A stretch of 64,000 bases of DNA, taken from assembly GCA_963675495.1 (NCBI GenBank), contig OY776215.1, forward strand, positions 832,001 through 896,000, read 5' to 3'. The DNA comes from an uncultured Methanolobus sp. (lineage in GTDB: Archaea > Halobacteriota > Methanosarcinia > Methanosarcinales > Methanosarcinaceae). Numbering within the stretch: position 1 is the first letter of the stretch; the number at the start of each line of letters is the position of its first letter. The position numbers and the translations under genes are program-made. Under the pieces are notes generated by a model. The model was not told the DNA's origin and ran no database searches. It was given only the letters and a program-made list of their open reading frames with translations. This document shows, piece after piece, positions 21,568-31,476 of this stretch.

Positions 21568-21639
21568 GCCTCTGTGGCTTAGCGGTATAGCGGCTGATTC
21601 GTAATCAGCAGGCCGAGGGTTCGAATCTCTCCAGGGGCT
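21568..21639 (+). tRNA. tRNA-Thr(CGT), integration target
   Basis: Cloverleaf: acceptor GCCTCTG/CAGGGGC, anticodon arm GCTGA-TTCGTAA-TCAGC, T-arm GAGGG-TTCGAAT-CTCTC; CCA not encoded. Confidence 0.95.
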
Positions 21640-21640
21640 T
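21624..21640 (+). repeat. att site (tRNA-proximal) of integrated element
   Basis: AATCTCTCCAGGGGCTT, 16/17 identical to 31460-31476. Confidence 0.9.
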
Positions 21641-21846: not shown

Positions 21847-23079
21847 TCAGGAAGAAGATGTTGGTACTGTCAATGGTATCCAGCGTATATCGCAATTTGC
21901 CGCATTTGTTTCTACTTTCCAAACATCATCTTTTCGCACAGGCATGGTAATTGATGCATACTTCATTTTCTTTGTTGGGTAAATACTATCAGCCACCACA
22001 AGTTCCATAGTGGAACCAGTGAAAGTGGAGCCTTCTACATATATGGTTTCTTTGTTCTTTTTAGGCATGTCAGTTGAAGATATATAACAAACAACAAATC
22101 CATCAGTTTCCGCTATATATTGACCACCTGCAACAAAGGAATCTTTGTCCCATTCTCCAAACTCTGGACTTTCGCCCTGTGGACCTTGCTCACCTTGTGG
22201 TCCTTGCTCACCTTGTGGACCTACTGGAATAGCAACTATTTGGTCTTGTAAATCATAAATACTATCCCATATTTCATAAATTGCCTTCCATAAACCACTT
22301 ATTTCTTTATCTGGATCAATGAAGTTGACGACATTGTAATTAATACCTGTATCAACAAATACAGAACTTGGGTAATTATTAATTGTGCCGAATGAATCCG
22401 GTTCTGCTGAAGTGCCAAGCGTGCAACTACTAATTAATATGCCATAATTGTTGATGATACCAGGGCCATAATCTGCATTATTGTTAAAAATGTTGTAATT
22501 TAGAATTGTGCCGGTATTATTTACAATTCCATAAGTATAGACATACATATAATTTGTAAAATTTCCATTGTTTTGAATCAATGTTTCACTAAAAATTGTG
22601 CCGTTGTTATTTAGTGACCCGTTTTCATAGTTATAAAGCATGCCATAGAAGTTAAATTTTTTATTATTGTTTATAATTCCGTAATTATGGAGACTTATTG
22701 TAGGCTCAATGTGTAGGAAATCGTTGTTCTCAAAAACACCAAAATTATAAAATTCACTTGATAAAAGCTCCATAGACCCATTGTTCAAAAATATACCGTG
22801 GTTATTCAGATTACCCACTATCATGAAGTGTCCGTCTGAACTGATTTCGAGCACCCCGTTCGGTTGGATGATAAGGCTACCTCCATTATTTAGTTCAAAC
22901 CGATCACCATGCACTATGAGACTTTCACCATCTTCAATTACAAGTGTGTCACCTGCGTTTATATACAGTTCATCACCAATATTAATTACACCTGGGTTTG
23001 TCAGATTTGTTGCGTTGGCAGTGCCTGCAAAAACAAGCATTAATGCTATTATTATAAAGAATAATCTATCCCTATTCAT
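21847..23079 (-). CDS. Secreted Asn-rich repeat / collagen-like fibre protein
   Basis: Signal peptide (..AGTANA), Asn/Gly-rich repeats, heptad segment, GPQGEQ repeats, small beta-rich C-terminal domain. Confidence 0.75.
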   Translation of the reverse strand: MNRDRLFFIIIALMLVFAGTANATNLTNPGVINIGDELYINAGDTLVIEDGESLIVHGDRFELNNGGSLIIQPNGVLEISSDGHFMIVGNLNNHGIFLNNGSMELLSSEFYNFGVFENNDFLHIEPTISLHNYGIINNNKKFNFYGMLYNYENGSLNNNGTIFSETLIQNNGNFTNYMYVYTYGIVNNTGTILNYNIFNNNADYGPGIINNYGILISSCTLGTSAEPDSFGTINNYPSSVFVDTGINYNVVNFIDPDKEISGLWKAIYEIWDSIYDLQDQIVAIPVGPQGEQGPQGEQGPQGESPEFGEWDKDSFVAGGQYIAETDGFVVCYISSTDMPKKNKETIYVEGSTFTGSTMELVVADSIYPTKKMKYASITMPVRKDDVWKVETNAANCDIRWIPLTVPTSSS

Positions 23080-23419
23080 ATTTATCACCATTTCATAATT
23101 ATTGAAAAAATATGTAAAAACATGTCCCCCTTAAAAAAATGTCTTTAAGTAAGTATATAAAATTATCCAAATGAACGTGTATTATTAAAAGTTATGAATA
23201 ATTCAAGCTCTGTAGAAAAACTACTTCTATTTTATTTTAGTATCACTATTTAAAAAGGATGACTCCCCTAAGGAATACTTATCACTAAAAGCACAAAGGG
23301 GATGAGTGTGTTTCGTCTAGTCAGTACTTAAATAATTGATTCATAAAAATCGCATTCAAAATCCTTCCTTCCTAAAAATAAAAAAAGATGCATTGCAAAT
23401 CAACGCATCAAAAACAAAC

Positions 23420-23668
23420 TTATCTAGAATTCTCACTTTTCAGCGATTCAAGTATTGAAAGAAGCTTAACACTCAACACCTCAAGATCCGAACCAAAGAG
23501 AGTGAAGTTCTCCCATCTGTTTGATTTCTTGTTGAACTTGGAGAACTGAAGCCATTTCACGCTTGAACCATCATCCTTTTTCTTTTCAGAGATTGAGACT
23601 GACGTATTTGCCAGGTGGATCTTTTCGCCTATCTGTCTAATTCCATATTCATTATATTCATTTGACAT
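23420..23668 (-). CDS. Small hypothetical protein, possibly PC4-like ssDNA-binding fold
   Basis: 82 aa; beta-strand pattern VSISEKK..VKWLQFSKF..WENFTL followed by a C-terminal helix. Confidence 0.6.
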   Translation of the reverse strand: MSNEYNEYGIRQIGEKIHLANTSVSISEKKKDDGSSVKWLQFSKFNKKSNRWENFTLFGSDLEVLSVKLLSILESLKSENSR

Positions 23669-24131
23669 TTTGAATTACCAATTAAACATTGAAATATCAA
23701 TACAAGAACATTTATAATTTCAATAAAAAGAGGACGCAAAAGTAATACAAAAACAATACTGTTTTTCACACTTGTCTACGATGCAGTAAATAATAGTCTG
23801 TTTCTTGGGTTTGGTTAGGATGTTCCTCACTTGCGCCCGCAGTGTTCGTCACATCATTTTTAGAGGGGAGTTTGGTATTTGACGGACAGAATTACTGCGC
23901 AACTCTGCCCTTTAAAGATGGTTGGTGCGTCAATGCGCCCTTTGGTCGCATTCACACTGAAAATTAGATTACTTGCAACTTACACTGACAGTTTGCAGGA
24001 CTTGCAGTCCCGGGGAGCAGAGTTTGTCGGCTCCCCTTCGTTCTAGTCTTGCTTTTGTTACGGGATTCTGCGAGGTGTAGCTAACTGGAAATATGCTCCG
24101 CATACTGTGGGGTTTCTGCGAAACCCCACTT

Positions 24132-24398
24132 TTACATATTGAAAACTTGAAAATGCCGGAAAGCATTTATGTTGTTTTCAAAGTGCTCACATGCTATGTC
24201 ATATGATTTCCAGGAACATGCATTCCCTAGAATTATATTCTTCAGTACTATATCGGGATGTAGATCACAGGATTGTGTTTCAATGAAAGATTGAACATTA
24301 TATGATGTCAATGCACCTGTTCTTTGTTCTTTACGATATTGATTGATCCTTTTGTATAGCTCTTGTTCACTTCTTATGAGAGTTTTGTCTTCATTCAT
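24132..24398 (-). CDS. Hypothetical protein
   Basis: 88-aa ATG ORF with an upstream TATA-like sequence; no recognised motif. Confidence 0.55.
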   Translation of the reverse strand: MNEDKTLIRSEQELYKRINQYRKEQRTGALTSYNVQSFIETQSCDLHPDIVLKNIILGNACSWKSYDIACEHFENNINAFRHFQVFNM

Positions 24399-24799
24399 GC
24401 AAAGTAGTATGTATCCTGTATATATTCTGATGAGCCAAGTGAGGTGAAAGTAATTTGTTGAACCTCTGTTTCATGTAAAAAGAATTTATGCAATATTTGG
24501 GTTAAAAATCACGGTAAAATCGGGTTGCATGTCAACTGTGGCACACACGCCTTAATCGTGTACCTAAGGGAACATTGGAAAAAAGCCACGGGCGCCGCGA
24601 AGCGGCGCGAGTGCTGGGTAGGTTGGATATTTTGAAGGATAAGAGGATTTAGTAAAAACAGTAGCAAGAGATTTTTGTACAAAATAATTAATAGTACACA
24701 AGAAAAACCATTTTCCACTAGAAATGATACTGCACCTGTTCTAGCTGAAATATCTAAAAGAAATATCTTTTTTGTATATTGATTAATGTGCTACTATTC

Positions 24800-26530
24800 T
24801 TACCGTATATCAACTTTAATTCCTAATAATTTATATTCATCTGATTTATCAGTTAAAGTTAATACTTTGTGTTTTGTAATCATTTCATCAAATTCGCTTT
24901 GATTCATGTGTTTTCTAATTTCATCAAGTTGATTTTGATTCACAGTTGCAATGTATTGCTTTTTAGAATTTGAAAATTTATCGTTTATGACCTTGAACAT
25001 GTCAGCTATTTGCCTCTCGTCAATATCCGAAAAAAGTCTACTGTCATGAAAAACAAAATCTATTTTATGTTTGTATCCTTCAAATAATATTGTCAAGTCG
25101 TAGCAAAAAATCTTGACATGATTTATACCATCAGAAGCATCTGATTCAATTTTTGCATCAATATCAAATCGCAATTGATTTGTTCCGTTATTGGGATCAA
25201 TTGTAATGCCAGCTACACTATCTGGATAGAATGTTTTCGCAAGACTCCTAAAAAAGTTTCTTAATATGACAATATCATCTCCAATATCTTCTAGATACTT
25301 GTCGGTAGTTTCAGCAGATTCCATAAACTCTTTTTTAATTTCTCTTTCTTTGGAGCTGCACTCCGCTTGTAGCAATTGATATTTTTTAATGTTTTCTCTT
25401 TCTAGCTCATATTCTGCTTTCTTACTATTAAGACTAACAAAAAGATCAAGTGCTTGATGGTCACCTAGATATTTCATAATACTATCGAGTTCTTTTTGCA
25501 ACTTCTCTATTTTCTTTTCTTTAGTTTGTATTTCTAATTTCAATCTGTTTTGCTGCTCACTTAATCTTCTTTTTCGATTTGATATCAACTTTTCATAGAA
25601 TTTTTCTAATTCGTCTAACTCTTTGACTAACATTTCGGAGAATTGTATTTTTGATTCTTGATAAACATTTAATATACTATTCTTGGACAAATCAGGTGAG
25701 AAATTTAAACTATTATTTACTTGTTCTAGATTATTTTGTAAAAGTATAATCTTATTATTTAGTACAAATAGTTCTTTTTCTACTTTATCTGCCTTCAGTT
25801 GGATATCTCTATAATCTTCTGCCACTTCAAATGTTTTTAAATTATCTTCCAATTGATTGATTCGGTCTTCTAATTCTACTAGTGTCAAAGCAGCATCTTT
25901 ATTCCCGGTAAAGAAATCTTTTAATAATGAATCATTTTTAAAAGTTTTCTTCAAATTATCCACAGAGTCTAATTCTTTTTTAAGCTCTGCTTTTTTTTGT
26001 ATCAGAGAAACATCTAATCCTAGTAAAAACGAATTGTACAGTAATGTCTGGTATTGTTTTCCAGTCTTTGCCGGTTGATCAAAATTTACATAAGATTCTT
26101 TTTTCGGTCGAACAAAAAAAGGAATTAAGCTTCTGAAAGAAAGATAAGAAATATTTTCAGGAATAACAAAACACAAAGAATCCATCTTCTTGTTAAATTT
26201 TAGAACCGACATTAATTCATCATTTAACACTATATCCTTTGGATTATTTGTAGTTCTTTTAACTGTATACGTTTCATTGCCTACCTTAAAATCAATGAAG
26301 AATTCCCAATCTTCTAATTTTTCACAAAAATCATTGTATCCTTTTTCAGCAGCTCCAAAACAAAAATGAATTATGCGGACTAAAAGAGATTTTCCTACTC
26401 CATTATAGGTTTTTCCTTTGTCATTGGATTCTGGATCATCCTGTTCTGCGACAATAAAGCTAGGTCCAGTTACATTAAATTCAACTGTCCTGAAGCTTTC
26501 TTTGTTCGAATAAACTTTCAACAAATGCAT
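24800..26530 (-). CDS. lmuB: Lamassu / ABC-3C SMC-like ATPase (DUF2326 type)
   Basis: Walker A TYNGVGKS, long coiled coil, DASDG signature, FVFHDSRLFSDIDERQ Walker B/D-loop, QYIATVN. Confidence 0.88.
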   Translation of the reverse strand: MHLLKVYSNKESFRTVEFNVTGPSFIVAEQDDPESNDKGKTYNGVGKSLLVRIIHFCFGAAEKGYNDFCEKLEDWEFFIDFKVGNETYTVKRTTNNPKDIVLNDELMSVLKFNKKMDSLCFVIPENISYLSFRSLIPFFVRPKKESYVNFDQPAKTGKQYQTLLYNSFLLGLDVSLIQKKAELKKELDSVDNLKKTFKNDSLLKDFFTGNKDAALTLVELEDRINQLEDNLKTFEVAEDYRDIQLKADKVEKELFVLNNKIILLQNNLEQVNNSLNFSPDLSKNSILNVYQESKIQFSEMLVKELDELEKFYEKLISNRKRRLSEQQNRLKLEIQTKEKKIEKLQKELDSIMKYLGDHQALDLFVSLNSKKAEYELERENIKKYQLLQAECSSKEREIKKEFMESAETTDKYLEDIGDDIVILRNFFRSLAKTFYPDSVAGITIDPNNGTNQLRFDIDAKIESDASDGINHVKIFCYDLTILFEGYKHKIDFVFHDSRLFSDIDERQIADMFKVINDKFSNSKKQYIATVNQNQLDEIRKHMNQSEFDEMITKHKVLTLTDKSDEYKLLGIKVDIR

Positions 26531-26763
26531 TTTTTTATTACACCGTCCTGCTCAATAACGGCCCCTATGGAATAGAGAAAAACGATTGTGAGTAAAAAAC
26601 TATCAAAATTATGCTTCGCATGATATATTTTATTTTGATAATCATTCTGATATTTATCCCATAAATTATCAATAGGTTTTGATGATTCTAATTGAGTCAA
26701 AATGTAGCTGCCAAAACCCAGCAAAGATTCTGAAAAATTAGTGTGCTTAGTTGGAAGGATCAT
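26518..26763 (-). CDS. lmuC: Lamassu / ABC-3C middle component
   Basis: 81 aa MILPTKH...SLLG...FLYSIG; overlaps both neighbours. Confidence 0.82.
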   Translation of the reverse strand: MILPTKHTNFSESLLGFGSYILTQLESSKPIDNLWDKYQNDYQNKIYHAKHNFDSFLLTIVFLYSIGAVIEQDGVIKKCIC

Positions 26764-27671
26764 TACATTTCTCCTTTGAGAGGTTCTTCAAATATATCAC
26801 ATGTTTCAAAATACTTTGCCATAATTACAATAACTGATATTTCATATATTTGTTCTGCTTTTGGACTTGCACATTTAACAATTGCCCAAAATAATTCGTC
26901 CCCACAACTATTCTTTTTTTCTTGGATGTAGATTTCATTCATTTTATCCCGCAAAGAATCTGCAAGGAAATCACTATTATTTTTCAAATAATTTTCTAAA
27001 GAATGCAACTGAATGCATCCATTGTTAAGGAATCTAGACACATATTTAGATAGATTGTTAAACTCTATTTTTTCATCCCAATCTGGCAATTTTACTTCAG
27101 GCTTATCATCTTTTGGTAAAGGTAATGTCATTATATATGAAATTATTTCGCGGAGTATTGAGTAATCTAATTGTTTTATCTTAGCAGGATCAGGAATAAA
27201 TCCTGCTATCATTCCTATCTGATCATCAGCAAGCTCAAAAAGCATATTTTCAAGGTCTTTTGCAGTCATAAATCCTGCATAATCAAGATTATGTGATGTC
27301 CTTATGTCTTGAATTATTTTTTCAGAGTCAGGATTTACACCTTTGTACTTGTCATTGACTACAAAATAAAATTGTTTTACTGGTCCCCATTGTTTATTTA
27401 AACCTGCGAAATCTGTTTTTAGTTTATTGACAATGTCTGTGTAGGATTTTCTTATATCCTCAGGAGCAAATACCTGAAAATATATGCATTTAGATTTTAT
27501 GTAACCATCATTTTTTCTGTCACCGATGTTTCCCCATGGCTTTATCTGCTGAAAATCTGGTTCTGTATAATTCATAATTGCACTGAATATATCTTCAAAT
27601 ATTTGTCCATCAGCTTTTAAGATTTTGTTTTGAAACAAATATCTAGTTAATGTTCTTTCTTGAACGTCCAT
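26763..27671 (-). CDS. lmuA: Lamassu effector: PD-(D/E)XK-type nuclease with ABC-3C C-terminal domain
   Basis: FEDIF...PWGNIGDRKNDGY...YFQVFAP nuclease-like core; KIEFNNLS and YFETCDIFE C-terminal motifs. Confidence 0.82.
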   Translation of the reverse strand: MDVQERTLTRYLFQNKILKADGQIFEDIFSAIMNYTEPDFQQIKPWGNIGDRKNDGYIKSKCIYFQVFAPEDIRKSYTDIVNKLKTDFAGLNKQWGPVKQFYFVVNDKYKGVNPDSEKIIQDIRTSHNLDYAGFMTAKDLENMLFELADDQIGMIAGFIPDPAKIKQLDYSILREIISYIMTLPLPKDDKPEVKLPDWDEKIEFNNLSKYVSRFLNNGCIQLHSLENYLKNNSDFLADSLRDKMNEIYIQEKKNSCGDELFWAIVKCASPKAEQIYEISVIVIMAKYFETCDIFEEPLKGEM

Positions 27672-27961
27672 TCTATTGCACCTATGCTGAATTATGGAAC
27701 CGTGTAATCTGTATTATGCAGTTTACTTAAAAACAATACACTATTATCAAATATACTTCTATATAATAAATAATGATAATTTCATTTTTAAGCTGCCGAC
27801 ACAAATTTTATCTGAAGGTTTATACTATGAACTTAAACTTAAAATTTGCGATTTCATTCATAAGCACATCAAAATGGCAAGAGTTTATAATAATGCAATT
27901 TAACTATGAATATTTACAATTATGTGTTCTATATATCTTATTTTTTGATAGCTCACGCTCT

Positions 27962-29407
27962 TCAGATTACTCTGCTATACCTCATAGTATTGTAATTTGA
28001 CCTGACTGCAATACCACGCCAAATTCCAAGTTCTTTGAACTCTTTCGCTAGCTGTTTAGCCTGTCTGTAAGTATCAACTACAATAGGTTCTTGGTCAGGA
28101 GTGTGGCGAGACTTAATTAATTTCAGGTTCTTTTTACGTTCCTTGAAAGGACGGATTACTCCGGAATCTACGAAGACGTGGCCGAATATCTTTTTGAAGC
28201 CTATGTTAAAGTCTGAACAGAAGTTGATGAGAGGATCTTTTGCTTTTTCCCATAGGCGTTTAGTTTTGAAGAATACCTTTGTGCAGTGTTCGCGGGCTGT
28301 GTCCAGGGTACCTTCGGATTTCCAGTAATTGATGTAGCGCCATAGGGAACGCTCGGGGATTTCTGTTTGTTCCTGGATGTCTCGGAAGTCTGCGCATCCT
28401 TCAGATTGAAGGGCAATGAATGCCAGGGCTTTAATGGCCTGCATGTTCTTGCCAAAGTCGATGTTCTCATCTTGAGAAGATTGATTATTATAGTTCCATT
28501 TTGGGAGATCATAGCGATATTCAAAGACCTTTTCAGCATCGAAGTAATTGTCTGATACGTATTCTATGGGAGAGATGAAGTTAAGAAGGGAGAACAGGAG
28601 TTTATCGAGGTCTTTTTTCAGGGAGAGGAATTCATTGATAGAGGGATTTTGTTTTGAATCGGATTTGAGGAAGACCTCAAGTTTTGGGTGTCTTAGGGGA
28701 TCTTCTGGTCTGCGGTCCAGGAAGTTTTTTATACGGTAGGATTTGACGCTGTGTTGATATTCGGTTTTTATGTTGCAGGCGGAGAAGTCGGGATTATCCA
28801 GTTTGTACATGTCGTATTTACCGGACCTTAGATTTTTGACAAGTTTTGAATCTCCACGCATGGAGGATTCATATTCTATTGCCTGGAGCATTGTTACCAG
28901 GTCATGTTCGTGTCGTTCATGACAACGTATGTGTCTGGCCATCTGGTATATTGTGGACCTTGAACGGTCTATCATGTGGCGGAAGCGTGAAGCTCCCAGA
29001 AAGTCCATGAATTCAAAGATGATGTCAAAGTGTTCGTCAAGGTCGATATAAGAGGACTGGATATGAATTTGAGTTCCTATTGATGGAAGGTTAAGGATCT
29101 TTCCTGATTTTGTTTTTGTGCCTGCTCCAAATAGGGGTTTTATGGTGTAGGTGCATTTTGATGCTCCTTCTTTATCGGTCCATTGGAGCATGTACTCAAA
29201 GGCGAGTTTCTTTGTTTTGGGATTGTAGAGGCCGCCTTGTTTGGGCCAGAACTTGAAGTTACGGTCACCTATCTTGATATGATGGTTATAGCTATCAGTT
29301 ACATTGTTAGAGAAGTAACTGACAACTGTATAATAGAAGTCCAGGTCTGTTATATGTAAATAACAGCCGAACTCATGGGTGACGGGTTCCGGGAACTTAT
29401 GAACCAT
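27962..29407 (-). CDS. Putative replication initiator resembling the conserved betapleolipovirus/haloarchaeal-plasmid protein, with C-terminal wHTH
   Basis: Recalled motif series HEF, GGL, EY, IKP, ARHIR, VKSY, DPLRHPKL; HTH RDIQEQTEIPERSLWRYI. Confidence 0.6.
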   Translation of the reverse strand: MVHKFPEPVTHEFGCYLHITDLDFYYTVVSYFSNNVTDSYNHHIKIGDRNFKFWPKQGGLYNPKTKKLAFEYMLQWTDKEGASKCTYTIKPLFGAGTKTKSGKILNLPSIGTQIHIQSSYIDLDEHFDIIFEFMDFLGASRFRHMIDRSRSTIYQMARHIRCHERHEHDLVTMLQAIEYESSMRGDSKLVKNLRSGKYDMYKLDNPDFSACNIKTEYQHSVKSYRIKNFLDRRPEDPLRHPKLEVFLKSDSKQNPSINEFLSLKKDLDKLLFSLLNFISPIEYVSDNYFDAEKVFEYRYDLPKWNYNNQSSQDENIDFGKNMQAIKALAFIALQSEGCADFRDIQEQTEIPERSLWRYINYWKSEGTLDTAREHCTKVFFKTKRLWEKAKDPLINFCSDFNIGFKKIFGHVFVDSGVIRPFKERKKNLKLIKSRHTPDQEPIVVDTYRQAKQLAKEFKELGIWRGIAVRSNYNTMRYSRVI

Positions 29408-29444
29408 GTGTTTGCAAGAGCTTATTTTGTCTCACAACTTTGCA

Positions 29445-29648
29445 TTAAAAACTATTATTTTTGTTCGGTTCATAGGGTTGAATTATGGCATGTAATCCAT
29501 TTTCATCCATGTATAATTCGTATTTTACGCAGTCAATTACTAGACTCCCATCAGGATCAACAATACCCAAAGCAAAAGCAACTTTTTGGGGTAATGTTAT
29601 GTTCAGACGGCCACCGTTTTCCTTGATACGGTATCCTGTTTTTCCCAT
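29445..29648 (-). CDS. AbrB/SpoVT-like small DNA-binding protein
   Basis: RIKENGGRLNITLPQKVAFALGI matches the AbrB pattern. Confidence 0.65.
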   Translation of the reverse strand: MGKTGYRIKENGGRLNITLPQKVAFALGIVDPDGSLVIDCVKYELYMDENGLHAIIQPYEPNKNNSF

Positions 29649-29893
29649 TAGATCAAACCCCTTGACCTTTTGAGCTCATCCAGCGTTATTTCCCCACGTC
29701 TTACAGGTTCAAGAAGTTCATTCAACTTTTCTTTTGCGAGCTTATCGATTTTAAGCATCACTTTTTTAGAGGGAGACAAATGGTTTAAAAATTCATCATC
29801 AAAAGTACTATCGTCAATAATAGATTGCTTTAAAGATTTTAATTGTGTATTTATACGAAACATCTCCAGAGAGTTTCGTAAAAAAGGATGCAC
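29648..29893 (-). CDS. Hypothetical protein
   Basis: 81 aa, GTG start after AGGTG, TAATG coupling to the AbrB-like gene. Confidence 0.55.
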   Translation of the reverse strand: MHPFLRNSLEMFRINTQLKSLKQSIIDDSTFDDEFLNHLSPSKKVMLKIDKLAKEKLNELLEPVRRGEITLDELKRSRGLI

Positions 29894-29931
29894 AGTTGTG
29901 CACCTTCTGGAGTTTTCTTTTATTCTATTGC

Positions 29932-30112
29932 GGCTTCTCTTCTTTTTGGCTATCTTTATTATCGGCTTTTTATTCTAGGCTTTATTATTGGCATTTTCTT
30001 TTTGGCTTTTCATTTTGGGATTTTTACCCTTTCTTGTCTTCGCCTTATTTTTTGCCTTTCTTATTTTGCCTTTTTCTCTCGCCTTTCTTATATTAGCCTT
30101 CTATTTTTTGCC
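29932..30112. repeat. Mirror-arranged array: 6xGGC, GGG/CCC, 6xGCC separated by T-rich spacers
   Basis: Read directly from the sequence; triplets recur every 12-16 nt. Confidence 0.8.
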
Positions 30113-30174
30113 TTTGGTTCTTATTCTTCATATCCTTTGAAGATAACCTTTTTTACAAGAGTACCTTGAACCTA

Positions 30175-30192
30175 TAGATATATAAACTTTTC
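30175..30192 (-). promoter_or_regulatory. BRE/TATA promoter of the ORF81-abrB-rep operon
   Basis: Minus strand GAAAAGTTTATATA matches the archaeal BRE-TATA consensus. Confidence 0.55.
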
Positions 30193-30246
30193 TAATTTTC
30201 ATACGAAGAGTGCTATTATGTCTCGCAAACCGTGCTATTTATCATC

Positions 30247-31419
30247 TTAGATAGTCATATTTCGCAAAGCCTCATTGACCTTTGCGTTAACCAAGTCATC
30301 TAAGTTTGCGTCAAGAATCTTGGATATTGCATCTTCTATTGGTTGTGATTTCTCTTCTATTTCAAGTGCAGTTTTTAGTGTTAACACTGAACCACAATTG
30401 TAGCAGAACATGTTGTTTGGAGTGTTAAGTGTCTTGCACCTGGGGCACTTGTGCACTTTTGACTTATTCTCTTCTTCTTCGATTTCAACACCGTTTGCCC
30501 TCAGTACAGCATCATCGACATCACGTCCGGATAAGTGAACATATACTGATGGAACATCTGAACCTTGTATCCATCCAAAATAGGCATTCATCTGTGCCTC
30601 TGTTAAGTGATTAGCCATAAATGTAGCTCGGCTATGCCTGAATAAGTGAGCGTGAATTCTTTTGTTTACACCTGCATTTTTGGCTATCTTTTTGAGCTGC
30701 TTAGTAATAGCGGCATAACCTATCATGGTAGAAGTGTTAGCTTTATTTCTATCAAAGTTCCACCATAATGGTGCATCTGGATTATCCCTTTCAGGATGCT
30801 GTTCAAGCCAAGACATTAAAAGGCGAACAGAATAAAAAAGAAGTACAGTACGATGTCCTGTCTTACCATCAACCCTTATTTTCATGCCTTCGTCAGCGTG
30901 CATTATATGTTTTATTTTTAAATTACCAATTTCACCAATCCGACAACCAGAATCCCATAAAATAGCTATAATAGCTTGATCCCTTATGCTGCGTGTTGAT
31001 TCAATCATTTTATTGACATCATCTTCTGTTAGCAACTCTTCGGGTAACTTGCGCCCCTTGCTCTTCTTTGTTGCCTTGAAGAATGCAATGATTTCAGGCT
31101 CTTTTCCACCATTCAACCATCGATAAAATTTCTTTAATGTTACTGCATAGTCGTGCCGCGTATCTTCACTTTCTGTTCTATCCCTAACGGCAATAAGCAC
31201 ATCTTCTATGTCAGTCTTTGTTGCTTCATCCAATGGCTTGTCATTCATCATAAGAGCAATTTGCTTCAAGGTGCTAACATATTTCATTTTCCTGAAATCC
31301 GTCATACCTTCAATATCACACTGTCTTACAAACTTCTTTATATGCTGAATATTGGAATCGGATATTTTCCCATCAAGCCCAGAAATCCTTTTTTTGAGAT
31401 TGTGATTGTAAAGTGCCAT
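30247..31419 (-). CDS. int: Tyrosine integrase with C-terminal zinc ribbon (SNJ2-like type, inferred)
   Basis: SGCRIGE, DGKTG, HLFRHSR, FGW...VYVHL catalytic set; CPRC...CYNC. Confidence 0.92.
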   Translation of the reverse strand: MALYNHNLKKRISGLDGKISDSNIQHIKKFVRQCDIEGMTDFRKMKYVSTLKQIALMMNDKPLDEATKTDIEDVLIAVRDRTESEDTRHDYAVTLKKFYRWLNGGKEPEIIAFFKATKKSKGRKLPEELLTEDDVNKMIESTRSIRDQAIIAILWDSGCRIGEIGNLKIKHIMHADEGMKIRVDGKTGHRTVLLFYSVRLLMSWLEQHPERDNPDAPLWWNFDRNKANTSTMIGYAAITKQLKKIAKNAGVNKRIHAHLFRHSRATFMANHLTEAQMNAYFGWIQGSDVPSVYVHLSGRDVDDAVLRANGVEIEEEENKSKVHKCPRCKTLNTPNNMFCYNCGSVLTLKTALEIEEKSQPIEDAISKILDANLDDLVNAKVNEALRNMTI

Positions 31420-31459: not shown

Positions 31460-31476
31460 AATCCCTCCAGGGGCTT
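31460..31476 (+). repeat. Distal att site (displaced original tRNA-Thr 3' end)
   Basis: AATCCCTCCAGGGGCTT followed by a T-run; CCCTC pairs perfectly with the T-stem GAGGG. Confidence 0.9.

What the first reader, a model, noticed from the sequence alone, without database searches (positions are those of the whole stretch)
29932..30112. Mirror-symmetric GGC/GCC ladder on a strand-biased tract upstream of the rep operon
Seen: GGC at 29932, 29948, 29964, 29978, 29990, 30004; GGG at 30017; CCC at 30027; GCC at 30042, 30054, 30068, 30081, 30096, 30110. Six triplets on each side flip orientation at the centre, while spacers stay T-rich on the + strand throughout, so only the triplets are palindromic. 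It lies between a TATA box (about 30180, minus strand) and the first ORF, so it would be an A-rich ~260-nt leader. I know no named feature with this layout. Inference: either a ssDNA/RNA hairpin with seven 3-bp rungs and large unpaired loops, or an inverted array of short binding or priming sites (origin, AbrB operator, copy-number control).
Basis: partly seen in the sequence, partly recalled or inferred. Interest (0 to 1): 0.8.

Follow-up and report, generated by a model that had tools for sequence, protein, structure and literature searches.

The report
Ladder-like leader upstream of archaeal Rep
A real, non-random ladder of GGC/GCC triplets lies in the long A-rich untranslated stretch between the integrase and the rolling-circle replication genes of a small mobile element integrated in a methanogen's chromosome; it most likely folds as RNA into a loose rod that helps control those genes, but this is untested.

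Summary
All 14 triplets sit at the stated coordinates and are the only GGC/GCC/GGG/CCC in the 353-bp intergenic region. The split was never reached in 20,000 dinucleotide shuffles, and the ladder is unique in the 2.87-Mb genome.

It lies in a ~9.85-kb tRNA-Thr-integrated element, between the integrase and an operon of two small ORFs plus a DUF7845 protein. DUF7845 is the Rep-Arvir rolling-circle initiator.

Five loci share this intergenic region:
- Three carry a GGC/GCC ladder, with different unit lengths.
- One has unrelated repeats.
- One has no repeats.

All five keep a TATA-like box, a 10-bp 5'/3' panhandle with a compensatory change, and a hairpin plus T6 before the first ORF. As RNA the rungs pair with probability ≥0.9 in two elements; as ssDNA the fold is no better than shuffles. 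The Rep winged helix is nearly invariant while the repeats differ.

Best reading, about 45%: the ladder is the hypervariable central rod of a structured leader or non-coding RNA controlling the rep operon. There are no expression data. Separately, a strongly conserved ~130-nt element downstream of rep is a better origin candidate.

The parts
30179..30186 (-). TATA-like box (TTTATATA on the gene-sense strand), 22 nt upstream of the 5' arm, about 60 nt after the integrase stop codon.
   Evidence: Located. A TATA-like octamer lies 20-23 nt upstream of the arm in 5 of 5 homologous loci, by my reading of the extracts printed. In Methanolobus psychrophilus, BRE/TATA lies about 19-22 nt from mapped start sites (PMC5378194, passages). 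The start site here is not mapped.
30147..30156 (-). 5' arm GTAAAAAAGG, the predicted 5' end of the transcript. It pairs with the 3' arm to form a panhandle.
   Evidence: (inverted repeat I1). The 10-bp core pairs in 5 of 5 loci. Position 2 is T-A here, C-G in three loci and T.G in one.
30125..30143 (-). P1 hairpin directly after the 5' arm (TCTTCA / TGAAGA). An outer GGTT/AACC pairing spans 30116-30148.
   Evidence: A hairpin is predicted at this position in 5 of 5 loci, with different sequences.
30042..30112 (-). 5' half of the ladder on the sense strand: six AAGGC cores (GCC on the + strand) spaced 12-15 nt apart in A-rich spacers.
30017..30029 (-). Apical hairpin GGG-N7-CCC at the centre of the ladder.
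   Evidence: pair probability 0.71. The central GC hairpin also has a 7-nt loop in L003 and L046.
29932..30006 (-). 3' half of the ladder on the sense strand: six GCC cores (GGC on the + strand) spaced 12-16 nt apart in A-rich spacers.
29886..29904 (-). Conserved 7-bp hairpin (GGTGCAC-AACT-GTGCATC) abutting the T-run. Terminator- or attenuator-like.
   Evidence: (the only terminator-like site in 29400-30400). A hairpin of 7-8 bp is present in 5 of 5 loci with different stem sequences.
29878..29887 (-). 3' arm CCTTTTTTAC. Its T6 (29880-29885) is the only run of at least 4 T on the sense strand in 29864-30246.
   Evidence: There are 16 runs of at least 4 T on the + strand against 1 on the sense strand.
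29855..29879 (-). Inverted repeat ACGAAAC-N11-GTTTCGT with GGAG and the ATG (29863-29861) in its loop. An anti-GGAG stretch CTCCAGA lies at 29906-29912.
   Evidence: (I4, I2). Arms are present in 5 of 5 loci: GCTAAAC/GTTTAGC in two, G.T at the base in L046, one mismatch in L004.
29648..29863 (-). First ORF of the operon, 71 aa from the ATG. The 81-aa GTG extension is closed by a stop in L003. No family assigned.
29445..29648 (-). 67-aa ORF with weak SpoVT/AbrB-MazE-like similarity.
   Evidence: PF04014, E 0.017, below the Pfam cutoff.
27962..29407 (-). 481-aa DUF7845 protein, the Rep-Arvir rolling-circle replication initiator.
   Evidence: (PF25227, E 1.7e-27, 97.2 bits against a cutoff of 27), and PMC13107129.
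30247..31419 (-). Tyrosine integrase with a C-terminal zinc ribbon, same strand, immediately upstream of the ladder region.
   Evidence: PF00589, E 1.8e-18.
21624..21640 (+). attL candidate: the 3' end of tRNA-Thr (21568-21639). The partner attR candidate is at 31460-31476 (16 of 17 identical). Together they bound an element of about 9.85 kb.
24515..24650 (-). Context: a highly conserved non-coding element (GC hairpin plus T-run, then a near-invariant 35-nt block) downstream of rep and its cargo genes. It is the better candidate for the double-strand origin.

Best explanation
The ladder is the hypervariable central part of a structured, A-rich non-coding transcript of about 280-295 nt. This is either the 5' leader of the rep operon or a discrete RNA ending at the T6.

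Proposed path of the transcript:
- It starts from a conserved archaeal promoter just after the integrase gene.
- It begins at the 5' arm GTAAAAAAGG and runs through a small hairpin and the ladder.
- It reaches a conserved hairpin followed by U6, immediately before the first ORF of the operon (71-aa ORF, 67-aa ORF, Rep-Arvir).

Proposed fold: in the RNA, the GGC (5' half) and GCC (3' half) cores are almost the only bases able to pair. They zip the two halves into a loose rod of 3-bp rungs separated by roughly 10x10-nt A-rich internal loops. That brings the 5' arm next to the CCUUUUUUAC 3' arm, which pairs with it and stacks on the hairpin.

Proposed function: I infer that this fold tunes termination or read-through at the U-run, RNA stability, or access to the start codon. 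It would thereby set Rep expression, that is, copy number or the switch to replication after excision.

The one-strand A-richness is explained by selection against oligo-T terminators in a transcribed AT-rich tract.

Shown: the anatomy, its conservation and covariation in relatives, and the predicted folds. Inferred: that the tract is transcribed, that the fold forms in vivo, and that it regulates anything.
For: 1. Promoter and terminator frame. A TATA-like box lies 20-23 nt before the 5' arm in 5 of 5 loci (my reading). A hairpin plus T6 follows in 5 of 5 loci, with compensatory stem changes. The T6 is the only sense-strand run of at least 4 T in 383 nt, against 16 on the other strand.

2. 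Panhandle. The 10-bp arms pair in 5 of 5 loci, with T-A changing to C-G and a T.G intermediate. The panhandle is in the RNA MFE and centroid in 5 of 5 loci. With DNA parameters it is in the centroid of only one, L004.

3. Rungs. For this window's RNA, ladder-only MFE is -26.5 against -15.8 +/- 2.9 for shuffles (z = -3.7; 1 of 300 shuffles as low). The six outer rungs pair with probability at least 0.89. In L003, all five rungs pair with probability 0.92-0.99.

4. Array-level covariation. L003 uses GGC, GGGC x3, GGC opposite GCC, GCCC x3, GCC in nested order. Its spacings are mirror-like: 43/41, 28/28, 28/28, 27/26. Rung counts are balanced at 7:7 here and 5:5 in L003.

5. Exclusive pairing partners. 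21 of 22 sense-strand C here, and 18 of 22 G in L003, lie in rungs. Cores are 100% conserved while flanks are 57% pairwise identical.

6. No other conserved TATA-like sequence lies between the ladder and the ATG (my reading).

7. Long 5' UTRs are common in the genus: 24% exceed 150 nt in M. psychrophilus, with a maximum of 497 nt (PMC5378194, passages).
Against: - There is no transcript evidence of any kind. No RNA run was listed, and no start site or 3' end is mapped.
- The ladder is not conserved across the five loci. L002 has three unrelated 57-nt repeats that fold worse than shuffles (z = +1.1). L004 has no repeats; its arms are 122 nt apart instead of 262-351.
- L046 has unbalanced arrays (3-5 GGC against 10-12 GCC) and ambiguous rungs (probability 0.05-0.27). 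It is, however, a degraded remnant.
- The L003 ladder MFE is not better than shuffles (z = -0.8).
- Predicted stability depends on nearest-neighbour estimates for very large internal loops, which are rough.
- GGAG abuts the ATG with no spacing. The T6 lies 17-22 nt before the ATG, so it could instead be a weak TATA for a leaderless mRNA.
- Only five related, non-independent loci exist.
Confidence: 0.45

Rival explanations
1. No dedicated function. The centre of a permissive leader is a hot spot for tandem duplication. Two seeds, the arms of an ancestral GGC-loop-GCC hairpin with their A-rich flanks, expanded separately. The only constraints are 'no oligo-T on the sense strand' and 'do not interfere with the flanking regulatory hairpins'.
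For: - TRF finds period 14 and 26/27 arrays in each half.
- Units are near-identical recent copies in L003 and L046.
- Unit length and number differ in every element. L002 has other repeats and L004 has none, while their proteins are 80-90% identical.
- L046 is unbalanced.
- 5' and 3' units look like direct-repeat relatives differing only in the core (my reading).
- Genomes of the family are rich in tandem repeats generally.
Against: - Cores are intact in all 12 diverged units here while flanks are 57% identical.
- The G-type/C-type boundary is strict and has the same polarity in 3 of 3 ladder-bearing loci.
- The core changed in step on both sides in L003 (GGGC with GCCC).
- Counts and spacings are balanced in both intact elements.
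- Unequal crossing-over across one direct array should mix or fix the two core types.
Confidence: 0.2
2. A DNA-level accessory of rolling-circle replication, in particular a single-strand origin where lagging-strand synthesis starts on the displaced strand. It would act either as a folded hairpin or as a pyrimidine-rich or A-rich platform for the host primase.
For: - The element encodes a rolling-circle initiator.
- The tract is non-coding, strand-asymmetric, variable or absent among close relatives, and sits upstream of rep, as bacterial single-strand origins do (general knowledge, recalled).
- In Methanosarcina plasmid pC2A, dispensable long repeats lie between the recombinase gene and repA. 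The authors speculate these are a single-strand origin (PMC9569500, passages).
Against: - With DNA parameters the ladder is no more stable than shuffles in any of the four loci tested: z = -0.24, +1.05, +0.51, 0.00. The panhandle is not in the DNA MFE.
- The 5' arm coincides with the predicted transcription start and the 3' arm with a U-run. These are RNA features.
- The 6-nt CS-6 consensus of bacterial ssoA (recalled) is absent, though it need not apply in archaea.
- The ladder is about 4-5 kb from the best origin candidate in the circular form.
Confidence: 0.15
3. An array of short double-stranded binding sites in two orientations for a protein. Candidates are a host chromatin or replication factor, the integrase, the 67-aa or 71-aa protein, or Rep. 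It would act as operator, iteron-like copy-control sites, or a centromere-like site.
For: - Regularly spaced identical cores with flanking A/T tracts.
- Orientation flips at a centre.
- Position in the control region of the rep operon, next to genes for small putative DNA-binding proteins.
Against: - Spacing is irregular (12-16 bp here, 26-43 bp in L003), so sites do not share a helical face.
- Only 3-5 bp per site are specific.
- The Rep winged-helix region (alignment windows 331-420) is 77-93% invariant across four elements whose repeats are unrelated or absent. The small proteins are similarly conserved.
- L004 lacks the array yet keeps intact genes.
- No partition ATPase is present in the element.
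Confidence: 0.12
4. An invertible DNA switch. The 10-bp inverted repeats (23 nt at 74%) flanking the ~270-bp segment would be recombined by the adjacent tyrosine recombinase. Inversion would place eight oligo-T terminators on the sense strand and shut off the rep operon.
For: - Inverted repeats 29865-29887 and 30147-30169 flank the tract.
- A tyrosine recombinase gene lies immediately upstream.
- The + strand carries 8 runs of at least 5 T.
Against: - 5 of 5 loci are in the same orientation.
- No strand-change joint appears in the contigs of four runs, although contigs drop rare variants.
- The arms are A/T-rich and double as promoter-proximal and terminator sequences.
Confidence: 0.03

Closest known systems
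Leader attenuators and copy-control regions of rolling-circle plasmids (pT181-type hairpin plus U-run just before rep; pMV158 small repressor plus rep operon). Recalled from general knowledge; pMV158 is mentioned in PMC9569500.
   Same: A structured non-coding stretch directly upstream of the rep operon. A hairpin followed by a U-run lies immediately before the first start codon. A small putative DNA-binding protein gene precedes rep.
   Different: No countertranscript has been shown. The body is a ~180-nt A-rich ladder of 3-bp rungs closed by a 5'/3' panhandle, which those leaders lack. The host is an archaeon, where termination needs only oligo-T. The Rep belongs to another family (Rep-Arvir).
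SNJ2 replication operon and origin (Rep-Arvir prototype), PMC13107129.
   Same: Same Rep family (PF25227). The integrase gene lies directly upstream in the same transcriptional direction. A conserved non-coding element lies downstream of rep: a terminator-like motif followed by a conserved hairpin. I found a candidate at 24515-24650.
   Different: SNJ2 is a haloarchaeal pleolipovirus. Its operon is assembled only after excision and starts inside int. Nothing like the ladder appears in the text I read (abstract, section 25, passages); figures and supplements were not seen. That paper reports no convincing conserved downstream element outside Halobacteria.
Repeat-rich intergenic region between ssrA (recombinase) and repA of Methanosarcina plasmid pC2A, PMC9569500 (passages).
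   Same: Same gene order in a relative of the host family: recombinase, then a repeat-bearing non-coding region, then the rolling-circle rep. The repeats are dispensable for replication. They are speculated to be a single-strand origin.
   Different: [quoted passage not shown] It has no ladder of short complementary cores.
Bacterial single-strand origins (ssoA and others), recalled.
   Same: Non-coding, orientation-specific, imperfect long hairpin, variable and dispensable among related replicons.
   Different: The ssDNA fold here is not better than chance. No conserved sso motifs are present. The ends coincide with transcription signals.
Zipper-type RNA thermometers and long regulatory 5' UTRs of Methanolobus (PMC5378194, passages; thermometers recalled).
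   Same: A long 5' UTR whose weak, cooperative pairing could respond to temperature or to a binding factor.
   Different: Known thermometers are short and occlude the ribosome-binding site directly. Here the weak pairs are far from the start codon and are repeated 5-7 times.

Membership tests
Rep-Arvir (DUF7845) rolling-circle replicon | Encodes a protein with the PF25227 domain. | tested here: met
   E 1.7e-27, 97.2 bits against a cutoff of 27, residues 6-292; 46 of 46 hits carry PF25227.
Rep-Arvir (DUF7845) rolling-circle replicon | Conserved non-coding hairpin element downstream of rep (the origin in SNJ2). | tested here: inconclusive
   Nothing is conserved directly after rep. A ~130-nt element at 24515-24650 lies downstream of rep on the same strand in 19 rep/element pairs from 15 genomes, by my reading. 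Its conserved core is shown. Function not tested.
Transcription attenuator / structured 5' leader | Promoter at a fixed distance, with hairpin plus U-run between the start site and the start codon. | tested here: met
   TATA-like box, hairpin and T6 are present in 5 of 5 loci. The start site is predicted only.
Transcription attenuator / structured 5' leader | The tract is transcribed and alternative folds change expression. | not testable with these tools
   No RNA run listed. Needs RACE, Term-seq and reporter assays.
Single-strand origin of rolling-circle replicons | Extensive intrastrand pairing of the displaced single-stranded DNA. | tested here: not met
   with DNA parameters, z = -0.24 (this window), +1.05, +0.51, 0.00; the panhandle is absent from the DNA MFE.
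Single-strand origin of rolling-circle replicons | Conserved sso motifs (RSB, CS-6 of bacterial ssoA). | tested here: not met
   the recalled 6-nt CS-6 consensus and its variant are absent on both strands in 5 of 5 loci. The motif is bacterial and may not apply.
Single-strand origin of rolling-circle replicons | Deletion leads to accumulation of ssDNA intermediates. | not testable with these tools
   Experiment needed.
Iterons / Rep-binding direct repeats | Repeats of constant sequence and phasing that co-vary with the initiator's DNA-binding domain. | tested here: not met
   Spacing is 12-16 bp. Repeats are unrelated in L002 and absent in L004, while the Rep winged-helix windows are 77-93% invariant.
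H-DNA-forming mirror repeat | True mirror symmetry on an uninterrupted homopurine/homopyrimidine strand. | tested here: not met
   GGC and GCC are reverse complements, not mirror images. Both purines and pyrimidines occur in each core.
Invertible promoter/terminator switch (fimS-like) | Both orientations of the segment occur. | tested here: not met
   5 of 5 loci are in one orientation. No strand-change joints in the contigs of 4 runs. Rare variants could be missed.
Protein-coding gene (membrane ORF on the + strand) | One conserved open frame. | tested here: not met
   antisense ORFs of 50-98 aa are open in all three frames in the three ladder loci because the strand is poor in A. Their products are unrelated, and the longest antisense ORF in L004 is 41 aa.
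Known RNA families (Rfam 15) | Match at or near the gathering score. | tested here: not met
   the best hits in 29300-30700 score 15-26 bits against gathering scores of 34-55, and none falls on the ladder.

The most novel reading that the evidence does not exclude
A new structural class of archaeal regulatory RNA: a discrete 'ladder RNA' of about 280 nt, closed by a 5'/3' panhandle. Its body is a rod of 5-7 isolated 3-4-bp G-C rungs separated by large A-rich loops. The rod acts as a cooperative zipper, sensitive to temperature or to an A-rich-loop-binding protein. It gates expression of the Rep-Arvir operon and so the switch between integrated and replicating states of the element.
Probability: 0.2. 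Interest if true: 0.7.

Novelty: new variant of a known kind. Interest (0 to 1): 0.5.

Why it matters
Rep-Arvir was recognised as a rolling-circle initiator family only in 2026. According to that paper, its control and origin sequences are unknown outside haloarchaea. This locus offers two things for methanogen elements.

First, a defined promoter-leader region with conserved, covarying hairpins. Its odd ladder insert can be tested directly by deletion and by compensatory rung mutants.

Second, as a by-product, a strongly conserved candidate origin downstream of rep, found in 34 of 177 genomes of the family.

If the ladder RNA folds and regulates as proposed, it would be an unusual RNA architecture: function carried by many marginal 3-bp helices. 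It would also be a handle on copy-number or induction control in elements that could serve as vectors for Methanolobus and Methanosarcinaceae. If it proves to be neutral repeat expansion, it remains a clear example of how composition constraints (no oligo-T on a transcribed archaeal strand) shape non-coding repeats.

Tried and rejected
- Translated ORF on the + strand (29888-30169, 93 aa): rejected. All three antisense frames are open in the ladder loci and the products are unrelated.
- Rfam: no family match on the ladder or on the conserved element.
- H-DNA or curved DNA: rejected from the sequence itself. The cores are not mirror images, and the period of about 14 bp is not in helical phase.
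- Integrase arm-type sites: unlikely. The att core candidate (31460-31476) is 1.35 kb away.
- Double-strand origin within the intergenic region: considered, because it is the only non-coding block inside the conserved int-rep module. It became less likely once the conserved element at 24515-24650 was found.
- More examples were sought:
  - Rep protein in 61 related genomes: 18 with a match.
  - Metagenome contigs: 4 loci. Two include the region upstream of rep, and neither has a ladder.
  - Genome contigs: 8 loci. Of the 6 with full-length rep, only L039, which is the same place as L003, has a ladder.
  - Viral contigs: none.
  - The small-ORF DNA in 177 family genomes: 9 with a match.
  - The 71-aa protein in 284 genomes of the order: 21 with a match, 30 loci. 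An A-rich tract (A fraction at least 0.54 in 120 nt) lies upstream in only 4 of the 30. Five others were read by eye and have no ladder.
  - Pattern AAGGC-N7-12-AAGGC-N7-12-AAGGC in 177 genomes: 83 with a match, almost all ordinary perfect tandem repeats. Among the listed rows only this window and G094 are of the ladder type, and 273 matches were not listed.
- Expression: no RNA holder listed.
- Laying the contigs of four runs of unknown kind showed no differences, no joints, no excised circle and no inversion. One run (X4) is highly fragmented, with GATC at loose ends and very uneven summed depth. Its kind is unknown, and contig depth cannot rank regions, so I draw nothing from it.
- Inovirus idea: the Methanolobus profundi provirus in bioRxiv 10.1101/548222 (passages) lies on a different contig from the related locus L040, so I did not pursue it.
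- Supplementary files of PMC13107129 and PMC5378194 (host lists, origin alignments, start-site tables) were not seen and may bear on the claims about origins and start sites.
- Literature searches behind 'not described'. I did not search specifically for ladder-like RNAs.
Full report
OBSERVATION. On the + strand there are six GGC (29932-30004), then GGG (30017), CCC (30027), and six GCC (30042-30110). These are the only GGC/GCC/GGG/CCC in the whole intergenic region 29894-30246. The + strand of 29932-30112 is 57% T in both halves. On the gene-sense (minus) strand the tract is 57% A, and 21 of its 22 C lie in the cores.

In 20,000 dinucleotide-preserving shuffles the best GGC-left/GCC-right split never reached the observed 12 (mean 5.6, maximum 11). 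A run of five consecutive 10-16-nt gaps occurred in a fraction of 5e-5 of shuffles. A ladder regex finds only these two arrays in the 2.87-Mb genome.

Because each half is a tandem array (period 14 and 26/27), regular spacing alone is not surprising. The informative features are three. The polarity is strict. The cores are invariant in units whose flanks are only 57% pairwise identical. The layout recurs in relatives.

CONTEXT. All genes from 21847 to 31419 are on the minus strand. A 17-nt direct repeat (16 of 17 identical) at the 3' end of tRNA-Thr (21624-21640) and at 31460-31476 bounds an integrated element of about 9.85 kb. From the right end the element contains:
- a tyrosine integrase with a zinc ribbon (30247-31419);
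- the 353-bp intergenic region with the ladder;
- a 71-aa ORF (ATG at 29863);
- a 67-aa ORF with a sub-threshold SpoVT/AbrB-MazE match;
- a 481-aa DUF7845 protein;
- an ABC-3C-type three-gene cargo (PF20275, PF20293, PF10088);
- two small ORFs;
- a 414-aa secreted protein with collagen-like repeats.

DUF7845 was shown in 2026 to be 'Rep-Arvir', a rolling-circle replication endonuclease distantly related to bacterial Rep_trans. It is essential for replication of the haloarchaeal virus SNJ2, whose origin is a conserved hairpin downstream of rep (PMC13107129; I read the abstract, section 25 and passages). So 'upstream of the rep operon' is right.

RELATIVES. Relatives of this Rep are named Methanolobus and Methanosarcinaceae by their sources. 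The same int / intergenic region / small ORFs / rep module occurs in four further places:
- L002 (genome G001).
- L003, which is the same place as L039 (Methanolobus vulcani PL 12/M).
- L004 (G006).
- L046 (G094, another genus), a degraded remnant with truncated int, a truncated 67-aa gene and no rep.

Other Rep-Arvir elements of the genus have a different upstream organisation and no ladder. Within the five homologous intergenic regions the flanks are conserved and the centre is hypervariable:
- This window has 6+1 AAGGC-type and 1+6 GCC-type cores about 14 nt apart.
- L003 has GGC, GGGC x3, GGC, then GCC, GCCC x3, GCC. The spacings are 43, 28, 28, 27 | 10 | 26, 28, 28, 41.
- L046 has three GGC, a central GGCC(C)-N-GGCC hairpin, and ten GCC about 15 nt apart.
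- L002 has three copies of an unrelated 57-nt purine-rich repeat.
- L004 has no repeats, and its arms are 122 nt apart instead of 262-351.

In all three ladders the spacers are A-rich on the sense strand in both halves. The 5' and 3' units look like direct-repeat relatives that differ in the core only.

CONSERVED FRAME. In 5 of 5 loci I find the following:
(i) A TATA-like octamer 20-23 nt upstream of a 5' arm G(Y)AAAAAAG(G) (my reading). This matches the roughly 19-22-nt promoter-to-start distance mapped in M. psychrophilus (PMC5378194, passages).
(ii) A small hairpin right after the arm.
(iii) A 7-8-bp hairpin of varying sequence, followed directly by C(C)TTTTTT(R)C.
(iv) An inverted repeat with 7-bp arms whose loop holds GGAG and the start codon.

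The 5' arm and the T-run arm are complementary over 10 bp in all five. Position 2 is T-A here, C-G in three loci and T.G in L004. That is a compensatory change with a wobble intermediate.

The T6 at 29880-29885 is the only run of at least 4 T on the sense strand between 29864 and 30246. The opposite strand has 16 such runs. Archaeal RNA polymerase terminates at oligo-T (recalled general knowledge). An AT-rich tract that must be transcribed in one direction therefore has to be A-rich on the sense strand. This explains why the spacers keep one polarity while the cores flip.

FOLDING. As RNA, the stretch from 5' arm to 3' arm folds in both MFE and centroid with the panhandle stacked on the hairpin in 5 of 5 loci. 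For this window the ladder forms a rod with all seven rungs. The ladder alone has an MFE of -26.5 kcal/mol against -15.8 +/- 2.9 for 300 shuffles (z = -3.7; 1 of 300 as low). Pair probabilities are 0.89-1.00 for the six outer rungs and 0.71 for the apical one.

In L003 the five rungs have probabilities of 0.92-0.99, although the MFE is not better than shuffles (z = -0.8). L046 is ambiguous apart from its apical hairpin (z = -1.7). L002 is unstructured (z = +1.1). With DNA parameters no ladder beats shuffles (z = -0.24, +1.05, +0.51, 0.00), and the panhandle is not in the MFE. The predicted structure is therefore an RNA property, and a marginal one.

AGAINST PROTEIN-SITE READINGS. The four full Rep proteins are 80-90% identical. 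The windows covering the winged helix are 77-93% invariant, and variation sits in a linker (residues 301-330) and in the C-terminal 60 residues. The 67-aa and 71-aa proteins are similarly conserved. Yet the repeats are unrelated (L002) or missing (L004). Spacing of 12-16 bp, or 26-43 bp in L003, puts successive cores on different faces of the helix.

WHERE IS THE ORIGIN? Nothing is conserved directly after rep, and the cargo differs between elements. Whole-element comparison revealed a non-coding block at 24515-24650 that is more conserved (84-97%) than the genes around it. It has a GC hairpin (GCGCCGC-TTC-GCGGCGC) plus a T-run, followed by a near-invariant block of about 35 nt that can form a second hairpin.

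This block occurs in 34 of 177 genomes of the family. In the genus, of 36 genomes, 15 have both Rep and the block, 3 have Rep fragments only, 2 have the block only, and 16 have neither. In 19 rep/block pairs it lies 0.36-6 kb downstream of rep on the same strand (my reading; kin are not independent). This mirrors the SNJ2 arrangement of a terminator motif followed by a conserved hairpin. It is a better candidate for the double-strand origin than the ladder region.

INTERPRETATION. I put about 45% on the ladder being the variable central rod of a structured leader or non-coding RNA that controls the rep operon. The rest is spread as follows:
- about 20% on functionless repeat expansion under composition and structure constraints;
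- about 15% on a DNA-level replication accessory such as a single-strand origin;
- about 12% on a double-stranded protein-binding array;
- about 3% on an invertible switch.

The mechanism beyond 'the RNA folds back on itself and brings the arms together' is inference. Candidates are modulation of termination at U6, protection of both RNA ends, or control of access to the start codon. It is also open whether the operon mRNA starts at the upstream promoter or is leaderless from the T-run. GGAG abuts the ATG, and the T6 is 17-22 nt upstream of it.

COMPARISON AND NOVELTY. In function class this resembles leader and copy-control regions of rolling-circle plasmids. In position and dispensability it resembles the repeat-rich region between the recombinase gene and repA of pC2A (PMC9569500, passages). 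Its architecture consists of isolated 3-4-bp G-C rungs, roughly 10x10 A-rich loops, a panhandle closure, and array-level covariation (GGC:GCC against GGGC:GCCC). This matches no Rfam family and nothing in the papers I read. I did not run a dedicated literature search for such RNAs. I rate it a new variant of a known kind, of moderate interest. It is real and odd, but seen in only three related elements, absent from two close relatives, and without expression data.

Noticed in passing
window 24515-24650 (minus strand); loci L115-L138 and L140: A ~130-nt non-coding element consisting of a GC hairpin plus T-run, followed by a near-invariant ~35-nt block. It is more conserved than the neighbouring genes and occurs in 34 of 177 family genomes. 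In 19 rep/element pairs it lies downstream of a DUF7845 (Rep-Arvir) gene or fragment on the same strand. It is a candidate double-strand origin for methanogen Rep-Arvir elements. PMC13107129 states that no such conserved downstream element was found outside Halobacteria. 25 of 30 loci were aligned; 5 short hits were dropped.
   Followed up: partly
window 24800-27671 (minus strand): Three-gene ABC-3C-type cargo (PF20275 CTD10, PF20293 MC6, PF10088 DUF2326) between rep and the conserved element. It is shared with the G001 element at 77% DNA identity but replaced by other cargo in G006 and G033.
   Followed up: partly
window 21847-23091 (minus strand): A 414-aa secreted-looking protein rich in N/G/I repeats, with a short collagen-like GPQGEQ run, inside the element next to attL. 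It is not conserved in the related elements.
   Followed up: no
window 23374-24460 (minus strand): Two small ORFs (82 aa and 88 aa) and the 460-nt spacer between them are conserved at 75-93% DNA identity in all three full related elements, so they belong to the element backbone. Their function is unknown, with no Pfam match at E <= 0.01.
   Followed up: no
loci L019, L005, L006/L036 (about 900-1000 nt upstream of rep): A second family of Methanolobus Rep-Arvir elements has no ladder. Next to the att-like sequence and a TATA box it carries a long inverted repeat (GGCTGTGGT...ACCACAGCC) enclosing a smaller hairpin.
   Followed up: no
G000:C1:2352056-2352241 and G000:C1:2474623-2474850 (outside the window): The same genome holds a second homologue of the 71-aa ORF (52% identity) and a decayed Rep-Arvir fragment containing stop codons. 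These are traces of further elements of this kind.
   Followed up: no
window 29808-30174, run X4: In one run of unknown kind, with fragmented contigs and GATC at loose ends, the bin holding the ladder has the highest summed contig depth of 30 bins. Contig depth cannot rank regions and low-complexity cross-matches are possible, so no conclusion is drawn.
   Followed up: no
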